A DNA stretch of 64,000 nucleotides from positions 32,250-96,249 of the forward strand of contig CAVSLC010000004.1 in assembly GCA_963728565.1 (NCBI GenBank), written 5' to 3'. The notes beneath the pieces were generated by a model. That model had not been told where the DNA came from. It worked only from the letters and a program-made list of their open reading frames with translations, and searched no databases. How positions within the stretch are numbered: the first letter of the stretch is position 1; the number at the start of each line of letters is the position of its first letter. Shown in pieces: positions 19,594 to 22,976 of this stretch. A program made the translations under genes and the position numbers. This DNA is from an uncultured delta proteobacterium (GTDB lineage Bacteria > Desulfobacterota > Binatia > UBA9968).

Positions 19594-19968
19594 GGAACCG
19601 ACACGAAGATGGCAAGAAAGCATTCGTTGGTTTTTAGAGGTATTTCGAATGTCGCTCATCATCGCAGCATCTTTCTGCTACGGCATACAGAAGACCTCTT
19701 TAGAAACTTTCGGCGGGTCGCCAGCTACCTTAATTTTTGTACACCAGTGCTGTCGCGAATTTCGACTCCAATTATGGTGGCGATGGGTATTCTGGCGGTT
19801 ACTGCTCTGGTTGTCACGGTGATCTACGAACGCGCCTCCGTTTTCTTGTCGGTGGTCCGCAGTGTCGTCGATTAGACGCGGGAATTTTTTCCACGCAACG
19901 GGCTGCCGGTGATTCGAAAGCGCGCGCCTATTTAGGGGTTCAGCAAACAGGTATTCATAACTAACTAA

Positions 19969-20020: not shown

Positions 20021-20491
20021 TTAACGCCGTGACGCTTCTCTGCCTGAAGGCACGCGCGTCCACGTGGTTCCATTCTCCCACTCGATTCTGTCGCGTCGAA
20101 CGTTGCCTCGTAGACCACGTTCCCAATCACGGGCATTAACCTCGCCATTCCGACTAATTTCCAGCCGGCTAGAATCACCCCGCTCATTCTTGGCCTCGAG
20201 CCCATCCCGAGAAGAAATGATTTGGGTACGCTTATCGCGGTCCCCATTCAAGTACCAGGTGCCCTCCAAGTCGCGCAGATCATCTCTCGAGCTTGCGGTA
20301 GTGCCATTGATTATTCCATCCCACCAGTTTCCCCGACGATCATCTCGCCGATCGTCTCTGCGATCATACCTCCCATCATCTCTCCGGTCGTAGCGGCGAT
20401 CATCTCTTCTATCATCCTGCGCGCTGGCCATTGGAATATGCATCAATGCTGCAATCAAACCTGCCGACAATAGTACGCTTATATTTTTCAT
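20021..20491 (-). CDS. small secreted protein of unknown function with an N-terminal DDRR repeat; paralog of 20725..21102
   Basis: Start trimmed to the ATG at 20491, preceded by GGAGGA. Signal peptide MKNISVLLSAGLIAALMHIPMASA. The C-terminal ~75 aa align with the neighbouring ORF (EGTWYLNG....RLEISR.G.V.ARDWE.GLRG.VRR.RIEWENGTTWTR.PS). Confidence 0.6.
   Translation of the reverse strand: MKNISVLLSAGLIAALMHIPMASAQDDRRDDRRYDRRDDGRYDRRDDRRDDRRGNWWDGIINGTTASSRDDLRDLEGTWYLNGDRDKRTQIISSRDGLEAKNERGDSSRLEISRNGEVNARDWERGLRGNVRRDRIEWENGTTWTRVPSGREASRR
20333..20416 (-). repeat. in-frame tandem repeat, 7 x 12 nt, encoding (D/Y)D(R/G)R units
   Basis: My codon-by-codon reading gives DDRR DDRR YDRR DDGR YDRR DDRR DDRR, directly after the predicted signal-peptide cleavage site. 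Confidence 0.85.
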
Positions 20492-20660
20492 GATTTTTCC
20501 TCCTGGCTGCTCGAATTTCGCAACCGTCATGCCACGCTCGATAAACTCGCCTGTTCGCGCTTAGCATTCTTCGATGTGCCGGTGGCGGGACGAATTAAAA
20601 GCGGGTGAACCAGCGGAGGCACACTTGACTTAGAGGAGCGGTTGAACAAAATCTAGAGCT

Positions 20661-20707
20661 CAAAACGAAAGGGGCCATCTCGCATCAATCGGAGACGGCC
20701 CTTTTTC
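20661..20707 (-). terminator. rho-independent terminator (bidirectional shape) after the 20725..21102 gene
   Basis: On the minus strand: GAAAAA-GGGGCCGTCTC-10 nt loop-GAGATGGCCCC-TTTCGTTTT. The stem is GC-rich, 11 bp, with one G-U pair, and is flanked by A and T tracts. Confidence 0.6.
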
Positions 20708-20724
20708 AATCAGGAACAATCAGG

Positions 20725-21102
20725 TTAATATCGTCTGCCAGTCCGATAGCTGGGTTCCCGGGTCCACGTGGTGCCGTTTTCCCATTCAATGCGACCGCGT
20801 CGAACATCCCCGCGCAGGCCACCCTCCCAATCCCGAGCGTAAACGTCGCCGCTCCGGCTAATTTCTAAACGCGTAGTCTGACCGTTTTCGTTTCTGGCCA
20901 CGAGTCCACGGCGCGAAGCGTTTATTTCGGTTTTTCTAGATCGCTCACCGTTTAGATACCATGTGCCTTCCAATGGCTGCGGAGCATTCCTGTTATTTCT
21001 CCACGAAGGCCAACCGTAACCCTGCGCTGAAACGGTGCTCGGACTGTTCACGATTCCAATCGCTAGAGCTAAGAGCAATCCAATTAAAGTAGCCTTATTC
21101 AT
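20725..21102 (-). CDS. small secreted protein of unknown function; paralog of 20021..20491
   Basis: 125 aa. Signal peptide MNKATLIGLLLALAIGIVNSPSTVSA. GGAGGG RBS. Shares the conserved C-terminal domain with the neighbouring ORF. Confidence 0.65.
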   Translation of the reverse strand: MNKATLIGLLLALAIGIVNSPSTVSAQGYGWPSWRNNRNAPQPLEGTWYLNGERSRKTEINASRRGLVARNENGQTTRLEISRSGDVYARDWEGGLRGDVRRGRIEWENGTTWTREPSYRTGRRY

Positions 21103-21179
21103 GATTGAACCCTCCTACAAGTTAGCTGCCAAATACTCTTCCCGAAGTAATCTCATCTATTTCACACCGATCCGCTTCA

Positions 21180-21209
21180 TTAGACGGTTTACCTTTCCGT
21201 TAGTTTACC
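21180..21209 (-). promoter_or_regulatory. candidate ECF-sigma-type promoter, GGTAAAC-N16-CGTCTAA
   Basis: On the minus strand, GGTAAAC (21209->21203), a 16-nt spacer, then CGTCTAA (21186->21180), about 78 nt upstream of the ATG at 21102. The same motif with the same spacing occurs upstream of the ECF sigma gene (22947..22976). Confidence 0.45.
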
Positions 21210-21437
21210 TCCGGCTTGAGCGAGTTTTTGGCATCGGGCGGTAAATCGCTCGCGACAAAAAAATGAAAGTCCGCAAAACAGAAGGGTCGATCTTCTCAGA
21301 CTACAAAATCAACAGGCGTCGAATGCTATGATGGGGTTACACCGGCGCAATTATCGCGCGCCAGCAAATTGACTCGCTCCGGGGCTTGTTTAAGAACGTT
21401 CAGCTCCCAGTGACGTGGCGCGGTGCGGCGATGAAGC

Positions 21438-21710
21438 TTACCTATTGTCGCGACGCTGCCGTTGCTCTTCATAACGCTGCTTGAGCCTATCCCGGCGATC
21501 CTGCGGTAGACGCTGCCAGCGGTCCCACTCCTCACGCAAGTGCTCCTTGTCTTGAGGCGGGAGATTTTGCCATCGCTGGTAATTCCGTAACACTTTATCT
21601 TTTTCTTTGGGGCTTAAGTTGCGCCAGTTATCGCCGCCATTAGCTGCCCATCCGGCCAGTGGCGACAGCAACAATGCGGCGAACAATAGCGAAACAAGAA
21701 CGTGTTTCAT
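21438..21710 (-). CDS. secreted DUF3106-like protein (W/R/Q-rich repeats)
   Basis: Start trimmed to the MKHVLVSLLFAALLLSPLAGWA signal peptide. Repeated WxxLxPxxK/R motifs (RNYQRWQNLPPQDKEHLREEWDRWQRLPQDRRDRLKQRYEE). It is the last gene of the sigma / anti-sigma operon. Confidence 0.5.
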   Translation of the reverse strand: MKHVLVSLLFAALLLSPLAGWAANGGDNWRNLSPKEKDKVLRNYQRWQNLPPQDKEHLREEWDRWQRLPQDRRDRLKQRYEEQRQRRDNR

Positions 21711-21772
21711 CTGATGATCAGCTCTCCAAAAATAGTCTTGATAATCTGATAATTCATCGGCCGAGCCTCGCC

Positions 21773-22294
21773 TCAAACGGCATGGGCCTCGGCTTTGCTG
21801 GTTTCCAGCCCTTCAAGCCCGCTCAAGGCTTCCAGCATGTCGAGTGATCTAAAGAACTCCAACTGTTCGGTGTCGGTCACTATTTCCCTGGGAATTCTTT
21901 CTTGCGGTTGGTTGTAGAGCGAACTTAGACTTCCCTTGCTTAGAACCACGCCGAAAGCCAGAGCAGCAATAACCGCTGTGCCAAACGCAGGAATCATCCA
22001 CGTGCGCATGGGCACAAAAAGTTTGCGCCAGTAGGATTTTCGCTCGCGCTGATGCCTTAACTTGGCGATGGTCTCCCGATAGTAATCGTCCCAGAACGAC
22101 TGCGGAAGCTCTTCGGGCAGCGCCATCTGCGGCAGCAATCGATGTAAATCTTCAATAAAGCGGCCGCAACCGCCGCAATCGCCGAGATGCTGTTGGAGCC
22201 GGCGCTTTTCCTGATCAGCGATTTCGCCGTAATAGTAGAGCACCAAATCCTCTTCCAGCTCTTTGCACATGGTTTCCAACTTTTTCGCAGCCAT
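21773..22294 (-). CDS. anti-sigma factor (zf-HC2 type, single TM)
   Basis: The HLGDCGGCGRFIEDLH motif matches the Hx3Cx2C zinc anti-sigma motif. One TM segment (WMIPAFGTAVIAALAFGVVL). It lies directly downstream of the ECF sigma gene. Confidence 0.7.
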   Translation of the reverse strand: MAAKKLETMCKELEEDLVLYYYGEIADQEKRRLQQHLGDCGGCGRFIEDLHRLLPQMALPEELPQSFWDDYYRETIAKLRHQRERKSYWRKLFVPMRTWMIPAFGTAVIAALAFGVVLSKGSLSSLYNQPQERIPREIVTDTEQLEFFRSLDMLEALSGLEGLETSKAEAHAV

Positions 22295-22308
22295 TATCGT
22301 TACTCTCC

Positions 22309-22857
22309 CTAAACAAACTCAACCAGACACTGGCGCAACGCCGCTACCGCGCGATGCAAGTAGACTCGAACGGTTCCTTCGGTAGTCTTCATGACTTTGG
22401 CGATATCTGCGATGGGCAGGCCTTCATGGTTTCGCAAGATAAAAGCCGTGCGCTGTTTGTTTGGCATGGCATCCAAAGTCTTGTCCACACGCCGCTTGGT
22501 CTCCCCGGCAATTGCTTCCTGGTCCGGACCGGAGGTATTATCCGTCAGCTCCTTCCGCTCCCGTTCGTCATCCCGTTCGCTTTCGAGCCGTTCCCAAACG
22601 ACCTTCCCTTTTCGCCGCGTGTGATCCAAACAGAGATTGACGACCAAACGATAGAACCAAGTGTAAAAACTCGAGCGCCCGTCGAACTGCTTGATGCGTG
22701 AGAAAGCTCGCAAAAAAGCCTCCTGGGAAAGATCTTTGGCCTCTTCCGTATCCCGCGTAAAATCCAGGGCGATCCGGAAGGCTTTCTCCATGTAACGACG
22801 GACAAGTATCTCAAAGAACTTACCCTCGCCCTGCTGACACAGTGCCACAAGCTCCAT
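22309..22857 (-). CDS. ECF-family RNA polymerase sigma factor (sigma-70 regions 2 and 4)
   Basis: 182 aa. Region 2 is DLSQEAFLRAFSRIKQFDGRSSFYTWFYRLVVNLCLDHTRRK. Region 4 HTH is LPIADIAKVMKTTEGTVRVYLHRA. Confidence 0.9.
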   Translation of the reverse strand: MELVALCQQGEGKFFEILVRRYMEKAFRIALDFTRDTEEAKDLSQEAFLRAFSRIKQFDGRSSFYTWFYRLVVNLCLDHTRRKGKVVWERLESERDDERERKELTDNTSGPDQEAIAGETKRRVDKTLDAMPNKQRTAFILRNHEGLPIADIAKVMKTTEGTVRVYLHRAVAALRQCLVEFV

Positions 22858-22946
22858 ATCGGGAAGATCTTCCGGCGAACGATTTCCAGGCGTTGCGTGA
22901 ATTGATTTGCCCTGCCTCTGCTCGTGTTCTAAGGGTCCCTAGAGGC

Positions 22947-22976
22947 TTAGACGTTCAGCCTTAAAAAAGGTTAACC
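22947..22976 (-). promoter_or_regulatory. candidate autoregulatory ECF-type promoter, GGTTAAC-N16-CGTCTAA
   Basis: On the minus strand, GGTTAAC (22976->22970), a 16-nt spacer, then CGTCTAA (22953->22947), about 90 nt upstream of the sigma-factor ATG. AAC...CGTC with a 16-nt spacer is the classic ECF promoter architecture. Confidence 0.45.

What the first reader, a model, noticed from the sequence alone, without database searches (positions are those of the whole stretch)
20725..22976. ECF sigma / anti-sigma / DUF3106 operon shares an identical promoter-like motif with a neighbouring small secreted protein gene
Seen in sequence (minus strand):
- GGTTAAC-N16-CGTCTAA lies about 90 nt upstream of the ECF sigma gene (22976->22947).
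- GGTAAAC-N16-CGTCTAA lies about 78 nt upstream of the 125-aa secreted protein gene (21209->21180).
- The spacer length and the 7-nt -10 element are identical in both.

Established knowledge: ECF sigma factors usually autoregulate and recognise AAC-N16/17-CGT(C)-type promoters.

Inference: the small secreted protein is a direct regulon member of this ECF sigma. This gives a regulatory handle on an otherwise uncharacterised protein family. The DDRR-repeat paralog (20021..20491) does not carry the motif at correct spacing (GGTTCAC-N12-CGTCC only).
Basis: partly seen in the sequence, partly recalled or inferred. Interest (0 to 1): 0.6.

Follow-up and report, generated by a model that had tools for sequence, protein, structure and literature searches.

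The report
Shared ECF sigma promoter, ambiguous regulator
Both promoter-like motifs are real, conserved stress-sigma-factor (ECF) promoters, but the small secreted protein gene carries the promoter variant used by a second, unlinked copy of the sigma system, so which sigma factor switches it on is unsettled; the system itself is conventional.

Summary
GGTTAAC-N16-CGTCTAA (22976..22947, minus strand) and GGTAAAC-N16-CGTCTAA (21209..21180, minus strand) are the only two matches in the 4.53 Mb genome, where about 0.05 are expected. Both survive in relatives whose spacers have diverged.

- A paralogous sigma / anti-sigma / DUF3106 operon lies on another contig (sigma 55% identical).
- The adjacent sigma's own promoter is GTTAAC(C/T)TTT-N12-CGTCTAA: T at -34 in 27 of 28 orthologous operons.
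- The paralogue's own promoter is GTAAACC…CGTCTAA: A at -34 in 26 of 26 sites.
- The secreted-protein gene has TGTAAAC-N16-CGTC(T/A/C)AA in all 10 lineages examined, so always the paralogue's variant. This holds whether or not the gene sits next to the sigma operon.
- The two sigmas differ invariantly at region 4.2 positions that contact the -35 element in E. coli sigmaE.
- Against a strict split, another target gene flips between T and A at -34 within one genus.

Most likely the gene belongs to an ECF regulon read by the paralogue or by both sigmas. Control by the adjacent sigma alone is the less likely reading. This is a new member of a known kind. The scan had already noted GTAAACC-N16-CGTCTAA modules on other DNA.

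The parts
22947..22976 (-). Autoregulatory ECF-type promoter of the adjacent sigma operon: GGTTAAC-N16-CGTCTAA ('T class', T at -34, followed by a CTTTTTT tract)
   Evidence: GTTAAC(C/T)TTT-N12-CGTCTAA is conserved upstream of 24 orthologous sigma genes exactly and 3 more nearly, with randomised spacers.
22309..22857 (-). ECF sigma factor, 182 aa from the ATG. The real start is probably the ATT at 22902, giving 197 aa.
   Evidence: Sigma70_r2 and r4_2. Closest solved structures are AlgU, E. coli sigmaE and SigW. It scores below every NCBIfam equivalog cut-off. Upstream start.
21773..22294 (-). Transmembrane zinc-finger (ZAS-type) anti-sigma factor, 173 aa
   Evidence: zf-HC2, 26.3 bits against a cut-off of 22.2. 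The C10/H36/C40/C43 motif and one hydrophobic helix are read from the translation.
21438..21713 (-). Secreted DUF3106 helical-repeat protein, 91 aa; candidate periplasmic partner of the anti-sigma
   Evidence: PF11304, 39.5 bits. It is always third in the operon in about 28 orthologous loci.
21180..21209 (-). ECF-type promoter of the 125-aa secreted protein gene: GGTAAAC-N16-CGTCTAA ('A class', A at -34)
   Evidence: TGTAAAC-N16-CGTC(T/A/C)AA lies 55-82 nt upstream of the orthologue in 10 lineages. It is an island of conservation in the alignment.
20725..21102 (-). 125-aa secreted protein of an unnamed family (signal peptide plus an ~80-aa all-beta domain)
   Evidence: No Pfam or NCBIfam match. 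273 homologues, all unnamed or 'hypothetical'. The model has 8 strands with a confident core and no significant PDB match.
20662..20701 (-). Intrinsic terminator after the 125-aa gene: 10-bp GC-rich stem, 10-nt loop, then CTTTCGTTTT
   Evidence: ViennaRNA fold of 20724..20655, -25.2 kcal/mol. The simple scan missed it because the loop exceeds 8 nt.
20021..20491 (-). DDRR-repeat paralogue (156 aa) of the secreted protein; it has no ECF motif and is not part of the predicted regulon
   Evidence: No AAC-N15-17-CGT[CA] within 300 nt upstream in G000, G121 or G119.

Best explanation
The locus is a conventional, self-transcribed ECF sigma / ZAS anti-sigma / DUF3106 envelope-signalling operon. The 125-aa secreted protein gene next to it is a separate one-gene unit with its own ECF-type promoter and its own terminator.

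The genome holds two old paralogous copies of the whole module. Both use the same -10 element (CGTCTAA). Their -35 elements differ consistently: GTTAAC(C/T)TTT for the adjacent sigma and GTAAACC(T)(T/C)C for the unlinked one.

The secreted-protein promoter is always of the GTAAAC kind. It is therefore most likely read by the unlinked paralogue, or by both sigmas with a preference for the paralogue. The adjacent sigma would contribute at most through relaxed -35 recognition or read-through from its operon.

Shown here: the motifs, their conservation, the paralogy, and the covariation between protein and promoter.
Inferred: that these are active promoters, that release of sigma from the anti-sigma under envelope stress drives them, and which sigma acts.
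For: - The motif is unique genome-wide and enriched upstream of genes.
- A paralogous operon exists on contig C12: sigma 55%, anti-sigma 37%, DUF3106 44% identical.
- Position -34 is T in 27 of 28 adjacent-type sigma promoters and A in 26 of 26 paralogue-type promoters. No exception runs the other way, while spacers are randomised.
- The secreted-protein gene has A at -34 in all 10 lineages. This includes lineages where T-class and A-class promoters sit 1.7 kb apart in the same locus (G119, L125, L126). It also includes at least four where the gene is not next to the sigma operon: G120, G041, L129/130 and L191.
- A Spy-like periplasmic protein gene keeps GTAAAC in 30 of 30 genomes of the family, so the A class is a stable, selected class.
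- The two sigmas differ invariantly (28/28 against 26-29/29) at positions equivalent to E. coli sigmaE R149, P166, R171 and R173. They are alike in region 2.
- Lane and Darst 2006 (PMC1540707) show that R149, P166 and R171 contact the -35 element. They also show that the -34 base co-varies with the protein.
- A third sigma in this genome (contig C10) has Ser at the 172-equivalent position and GGAAC, as that rule predicts.
- In Acinetobacter SigAb, mutagenesis defined GTCAAC as the core -35 element, so the base at this position is part of a recognised core (PMC12153292).
Against: - In at least 7 lineages the gene lies directly downstream of the adjacent sigma's operon, and never next to the paralogue's. 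Neighbouring genes are the usual ECF targets.
- No strong terminator separates DUF3106 from the gene, so read-through is possible.
- Another target, a 165-aa Arg-rich secreted protein, flips between T, A and C at -34, even between species of one genus with the same spacer.
- One genome that appears to lack the adjacent-type sigma still has ATTAAC at that target gene. So -34 is not an absolute discriminator.
- The residue that reads -34 in sigmaE (position 172) is Val in both paralogues.
- The secreted-protein promoter lacks the CTTC tract of the paralogue's own promoter.
Confidence: 0.55

Rival explanations
1. One reading: the adjacent ECF sigma directly, and essentially alone, transcribes the 125-aa gene from GGTAAAC-N16-CGTCTAA. 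The T/A difference at -34 only tunes promoter strength.
For: - Gene order sigma, anti-sigma, DUF3106, secreted-protein gene is conserved in at least 7 lineages.
- The -10 element and spacer are identical.
- -34 is not absolute at another target.
- The residue equivalent to sigmaE S172 is the same (Val) in both paralogues.
Against: - A at -34 is never seen in 28 promoters of this sigma's own gene. T is never seen in 10 lineages of the secreted-protein promoter.
- The invariant TTT tract after AAC is absent from the secreted-protein promoter.
- In at least four lineages the gene is unlinked from the operon yet keeps the same promoter.
- The paralogue's own promoter matches the hexamer exactly.
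Confidence: 0.25
2. A different sigma reads the site, for example the canonical RpoE-like sigma on contig C10, whose own promoter also ends in CGTCTAA. Alternatively the site is a conserved element that is not a promoter.
For: At least three sigma genes in the genome have CGTCTAA promoters. No transcript evidence was obtainable.
Against: The C10 sigma's -35 element is GGAACTTTT, which differs from GTAAAC at both -35 and -34. The bipartite conservation with a free spacer, fixed 16-nt spacing and a constant 55-82 nt distance to the start codon is the signature of a promoter.
Confidence: 0.1
3. The second motif is a chance match.
For: With up to 2 mismatches allowed, 8 of 100 shuffles of the window gave two or more matches.
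Against: Both sites are exact matches. They are the only two in the genome, where about 0.05 are expected. The motif is conserved in 10 lineages with diverged spacers.
Confidence: 0.02

Closest known systems
E. coli sigmaE (RpoE)-RseA-RseB and P. aeruginosa AlgU-MucA-MucB envelope-stress systems
   Same: - An autoregulated ECF sigma, a single-pass membrane anti-sigma and a periplasmic third protein.
- Promoter geometry of AAC, 18 nt, then TC(A/T)AA. The RpoE consensus is GGAACTT / TCAAA, as quoted in PMC12153292.
- AlgU and sigmaE are the closest solved structures by sequence.
- Predicted targets are exported envelope proteins.
   Different: - The anti-sigma is a zinc-finger (zf-HC2) type, not RseA/MucA. 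The third gene is DUF3106, not RseB/MucB.
- The sigma scores 120.5 bits against the RpoE equivalog cut-off of 236.
- The -35 element is GT(T/A)AAC instead of GGAAC, and the -10 element carries a CG extension.
Acinetobacter baumannii SigAb-AabA-AabB (Bacon et al., mBio 2025, PMC12153292)
   Same: - A three-gene operon of ECF sigma, membrane anti-sigma and helical periplasmic protein with co-anti-sigma activity.
- The -35 element has the same GTNAAC form (GTCAAC), with a CGT-type -10 element and a 16-17 nt spacer.
- A small direct regulon.
   Different: - AabA is 107 aa and CnrY-like, whereas the anti-sigma here is 173 aa with a ZAS motif.
- The -10 element is CGTT rather than CGTCTAA.
- Sequence relatedness of the sigma or of DUF3106 to SigAb/AabB was not tested here.
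Bacillus subtilis sigmaW / sigmaX / sigmaM overlapping regulons (own knowledge; SigX consensus TGTAAC / CGWC as quoted in PMC12153292)
   Same: Several ECF sigmas in one cell read very similar AAC...CGT promoters. Single bases decide which sigma, or whether several, act on a given gene. TGTAAAC-N16-CGTC resembles the sigmaW and sigmaX sites.
   Different: In B. subtilis the discrimination lies mainly in the -10 element. Here the -10 elements are identical and the consistent difference is in the -35 element.

Membership tests
ECF (group IV) sigma-70 factors | Only regions 2 and 4 of sigma-70 are present; size is about 180-200 aa | tested here: met
   PF04542 63.7 bits, PF08281 56 bits, TIGR02937 111 bits against a cut-off of 42.9.
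ECF (group IV) sigma-70 factors | Co-transcribed cognate anti-sigma factor | tested here: met
   A zf-HC2 protein starts 15 nt after the sigma stop codon. The pair is conserved in about 28 loci. Binding was not tested.
ECF (group IV) sigma-70 factors | Autoregulatory AAC...CGT-type promoter | tested here: met
   GTTAAC(C/T)TTT-N12-CGTCTAA is conserved upstream of the orthologous sigma genes. Activity was not tested.
RpoE equivalog (TIGR02939) / ECF02-type RpoE-RseA | Score over the equivalog cut-off; RseA-type anti-sigma and RseB partner | tested here: not met
   120.5 bits against a cut-off of 236.15. All other NCBIfam equivalogs are also below their cut-offs. The anti-sigma is zf-HC2 and the third gene is DUF3106.
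Numbered ECF group of Casas-Pastor et al. 2021 (ECF Hub) | Assignment by the group HMMs; the group's predicted promoter | not testable with these tools
   The paper's supplementary tables are not held, and its main text gives no motif for such a group.
ZAS (zinc-binding) class I anti-sigma factors | H-x3-C-x2-C motif with an upstream Cys/His, in an N-terminal anti-sigma domain | tested here: met
   PF13490 26.3 bits against a cut-off of 22.2. C10, H36, C40 and C43 are read from the translation. Zinc binding was not tested.
DUF3106 (PF11304) | Pfam gathering score | tested here: met
   39.5 bits against 24.3.
DUF7586 (PF24491), for the 125-aa protein | Pfam gathering score | tested here: not met
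   No hit for the window's protein. Two-domain relatives reach 26.4 and 24.5 bits against a cut-off of 27.
SigAb-AabA-AabB type module | Sequence relatedness of the sigma to SigAb and of the third gene to AabB | not tested
   Only the architecture and promoter form were compared, using the paper.

The most novel reading that the evidence does not exclude
Two ancient paralogous ECF sigma / anti-sigma / DUF3106 modules are kept apart by a single -35 base (-34 T against A), read through co-varying region 4.2 residues. On this reading the gene beside one module is wired to the other module, so one stress pathway's output sits in the other's locus. Targets could then move between the two regulons by a one-base change, as the 165-aa gene appears to do.
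Probability: 0.3. Interest if true: 0.5.

Novelty: new member of a known kind. Interest (0 to 1): 0.35.

Why it matters
It gives an uncharacterised, soil-metagenome-wide family of small secreted beta-proteins a testable regulatory input, namely an envelope-stress ECF sigma.

It also offers a clean natural pair of paralogous sigmas for studying how -35 specificity separates regulons when the -10 elements are identical. The pair has matched promoter variants and only four candidate specificity residues.

Practically, it is a caution for regulon prediction. Adjacency plus a degenerate motif can assign a target to the wrong paralogue.

Tried and rejected
- ECF group assignment failed. The supplementary tables of the classification paper are not held, and 'DUF3106' occurs in no relevant paper.
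- Function of the 125-aa protein stayed open. Pfam, NCBIfam and DUF7586 gave nothing. The AlphaFold model has a confident 8-stranded beta core, but Foldseek against the PDB gave no match better than E = 0.19; the top hits are fatty-acid-binding or lipocalin-like barrels and are not significant.
- Phylogenetic profiling could not separate the two sigmas. All six reference genomes with the orthologue hold both sigma types.
- I tested whether -34 at the 165-aa target tracks presence of the adjacent-type sigma. My tally is roughly 15 of 18 T-sites and 5 of 7-8 A-sites in genomes that have it, so there is no signal.
- Other paralogues of the secreted protein lack the motif: the DDRR form, the tandem 191-aa form and the lipoprotein-like forms.
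- The second GGTAAAC inside the spacer of this genome's promoter is not conserved and was dismissed.
- The CGTCTAA near 19880 (minus strand) has no AAC at the right distance and was dismissed.
Full report
**1. Observation**

The minus strand reads GGTTAAC-N16-CGTCTAA at 22976..22947 and GGTAAAC-N16-CGTCTAA at 21209..21180. The -10 elements end 89 nt and 77 nt before the ATG codons at 22857 and 21102.

- an ECF sigma (Sigma70_r2 plus r4_2);
- a zf-HC2 anti-sigma with C10/H36/C40/C43 and one membrane helix;
- a secreted DUF3106 protein;
- a 125-aa secreted protein that matches no family.

The DDRR paralogue lacks the motif. The 125-aa gene ends in a strong hairpin terminator. No comparable terminator lies between DUF3106 and the second motif.

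**2. Is it more than chance?**

The window is contig C4:32250-96249 of a 4.53 Mb draft genome.
- The full motif occurs only at these two places in the genome. Base composition predicts about 0.05 matches.
- GTWAAC-N16-CGTCTAA occurs six times in this genome. Every copy is 20-115 nt upstream of, and co-oriented with, a gene.
- In the eight genomes of the genus there are 42 matches, against 4 for the reversed-pattern control.
- The looser AAC-N16-CGTCTAA has 10 hits, about the 7 expected. Eight of them are intergenic and correctly oriented.

The genes behind these sites are three ECF sigma genes plus exported proteins. The exported proteins are a Spy-like periplasmic protein, a glycine-zipper lipoprotein, a 165-aa Arg-rich protein and an 86-aa protein. 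This looks like an envelope-stress regulon.

**3. Conservation**

Three congeneric genomes keep the gene order and both motifs. In the most diverged of them (125-aa protein 79% identical), the region upstream of the 125-aa gene is otherwise unalignable. The -35 and -10 elements stand out as an island.

Orthologues of the 125-aa protein were traced down to 56-73% identity in two further reference genomes and six metagenome lineages.
- All have TGTAAAC-N16-CGTC(T/A/C)AA 55-82 nt upstream, with different spacers.
- In at least four of these lineages the gene is not next to any sigma operon.
- The promoter therefore belongs to the gene, not to the locus.

**4. The complication: a paralogous module**

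Contig C12 carries a second sigma / zf-HC2 anti-sigma / DUF3106 operon (55%, 37% and 44% identity). A DUF1800 gene follows it. Both modules are old. Orthologues of each occur across most genera of the family.

Reading the sigma upstream regions without constraining the -35 flank gave these results:

| Promoter | Consensus | Base at -34 |
|---|---|---|
| Adjacent-type sigma's own | GTTAAC(C/T)TTT-N12-CGTCTAA | T in 27 of 28 evaluable loci, never A |
| C12-type sigma's own | GTAAACC(T)(T/C)C-N12-CGTCTAA | A in 26 of 26 sites, never T |
| 125-aa gene | TGTAAAC-N16-CGTC(T/A/C)AA | A in 10 of 10 lineages |

The 125-aa gene carries the unlinked paralogue's version. This includes loci where a T-class and an A-class promoter have sat 1.7 kb apart through the divergence that scrambled their spacers.

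A third sigma, on contig C10, is a canonical RpoE type with GGAACTTTT…CGTCTAA. Three sigma genes thus share the -10 element, which has no diagnostic value.

**5. Is -34 a specificity determinant?**

For:
- A Spy-like target keeps GTAAAC in 30 of 30 genomes.
- The two sigmas are alike in region 2. They differ invariantly at region 4.2 positions equivalent to E. coli sigmaE R149 (R against K), P166 (T against A), R171 (R against K) and R173 (Y against H).
- In the sigmaE region 4 / DNA structure, P166, T169, S172 and R176 make the contacts at -35 and -34. R171 reads -31. R149 goes with the T-rich tract after AAC. The -34 base co-varies with the protein across ECF sigmas (PMC1540707).
- R against K at position 149 matches the invariant TTT tract against CT(T/C)C seen here.
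- The C10 sigma has Ser172 and G at -34, as that paper's rule predicts.
- SigAb of Acinetobacter uses GTCAAC, defined by mutagenesis (PMC12153292).

Against:
- Residue 172 is Val in both paralogues.
- The 165-aa target flips between T, A and C at -34, even within one genus with the same spacer.
- One 96%-complete genome without a detectable adjacent-type module still has ATTAAC at that target gene.

I conclude that -34 biases recognition but does not strictly partition it.

**6. Mechanism proposed**

Envelope stress inactivates or degrades the membrane ZAS anti-sigma. The DUF3106 protein may modulate this step in the periplasm, as RseB or AabB do in their systems. The freed sigma then transcribes its own operon from the T-class promoter.

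The 125-aa gene is a monocistronic unit driven from an A-class promoter. It is most likely read by the C12-type sigma, or by both sigmas. Read-through from the adjacent operon remains possible.

Only the sequence features and their conservation are shown here. Promoter activity, the inducing signal and the identity of the sigma are inferred.

**7. The 125-aa protein**

It has 273 homologues, all unnamed or labelled only 'hypothetical protein', mostly from metagenomes. About 21 columns are invariant in the alignment, including the GTWY..NG and IEW.NGT.W motifs.

The model has a disordered N-terminal part and a confident eight-stranded beta domain. No significant structural relative was found. 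Function remains unknown. A small periplasmic beta-barrel-like binding module is the most that can be said.

**8. Comparison with known systems, and novelty**

The system works like the RpoE/AlgU and SigAb systems but is a member of neither (see the membership rows). Its numbered ECF group could not be determined.

Autoregulated ECF modules with a few exported targets are commonplace. Paralogue insulation through the -35 element is an established concept (own knowledge). This is therefore a new member of a known kind, with a tidy natural example of paralogue-specific -35 variants.

Earlier notes of this scan record GTAAACC-N16-CGTCTAA sigma / ZAS / DUF3106 modules in other genomes. I did not check them.

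**9. Limits**

Orthology of metagenome fragments rests on identity and synteny only. Related genomes are not independent samples. The lineage counts given are of promoters with distinct spacers.

Noticed in passing
window 22858..22938 (-), ATT at 22902..22900: The sigma gene probably starts at a rare ATT codon 15 codons upstream of the ATG.
- The upstream frame is open and encodes ...SIHATPGNRSPEDLPD, matching the N-termini (…SPEDLPDEELV…) of orthologues in other genera.
- Three of five substitutions in a relative are synonymous.
- In three close relatives the ATG position is TTA or TTG.
- A conserved AGG(C/T)AGGG lies 7 nt before the ATT.

This would shorten the leader from 89 nt to about 44 nt.
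   Followed up: partly
genome contig C12:17411-20966 (outside the window): A paralogous operon: GTAAACC-N16-CGTCTAA promoter, ECF sigma (211 aa), zf-HC2 anti-sigma (164 aa), a 98-aa ORF, DUF3106 (131 aa), then a 469-aa protein that looks like DUF1800 by eye. In other genera the same promoter precedes a small secreted 'ELRHDRRE' protein placed ahead of the sigma gene.
   Followed up: partly
genome contig C19:19162-19749 (outside the window); loci L131-L160: A 175-aa Spy/CpxP-like periplasmic protein gene has GTAAAC-N16-CGTC(T/C)(A/G/T)A about 20-40 nt upstream in 30 of 30 genomes of the family. It is the most stable predicted member of the A-class regulon.
   Followed up: yes
genome contig C28:86066-86609 (outside the window); loci L161-L190: A 165-aa secreted, Arg-rich coiled-coil-like protein gene always has an AAC-N16-CGTCTAA promoter. 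Its -34 base (and -35 base) flips between T, A and C among genera and within one genus. This could be a target that moves between regulons.
   Followed up: partly
genome contig C10:237753-238345 (outside the window): A canonical RpoE-like sigma (recognition helix GTVKSRLHRAR) has a GGAACTTTTTT-...-CGTCTAA promoter. It is the third sigma gene in the genome that shares the CGTCTAA -10 element.
   Followed up: partly
genome contig C19:191167-191709 and C28:41101-41421 (outside the window): Further paralogues of the 125-aa protein: a 191-aa form with two tandem copies of the beta domain, and a lipoprotein-like single-domain form. Neither has the ECF motif upstream.
   Followed up: partly
window 21186..21193 (-): In this genome only, the spacer of the 125-aa gene's promoter holds a second GGTAAAC directly abutting CGTCTAA. 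It is not conserved in relatives and is probably incidental.
   Followed up: yes
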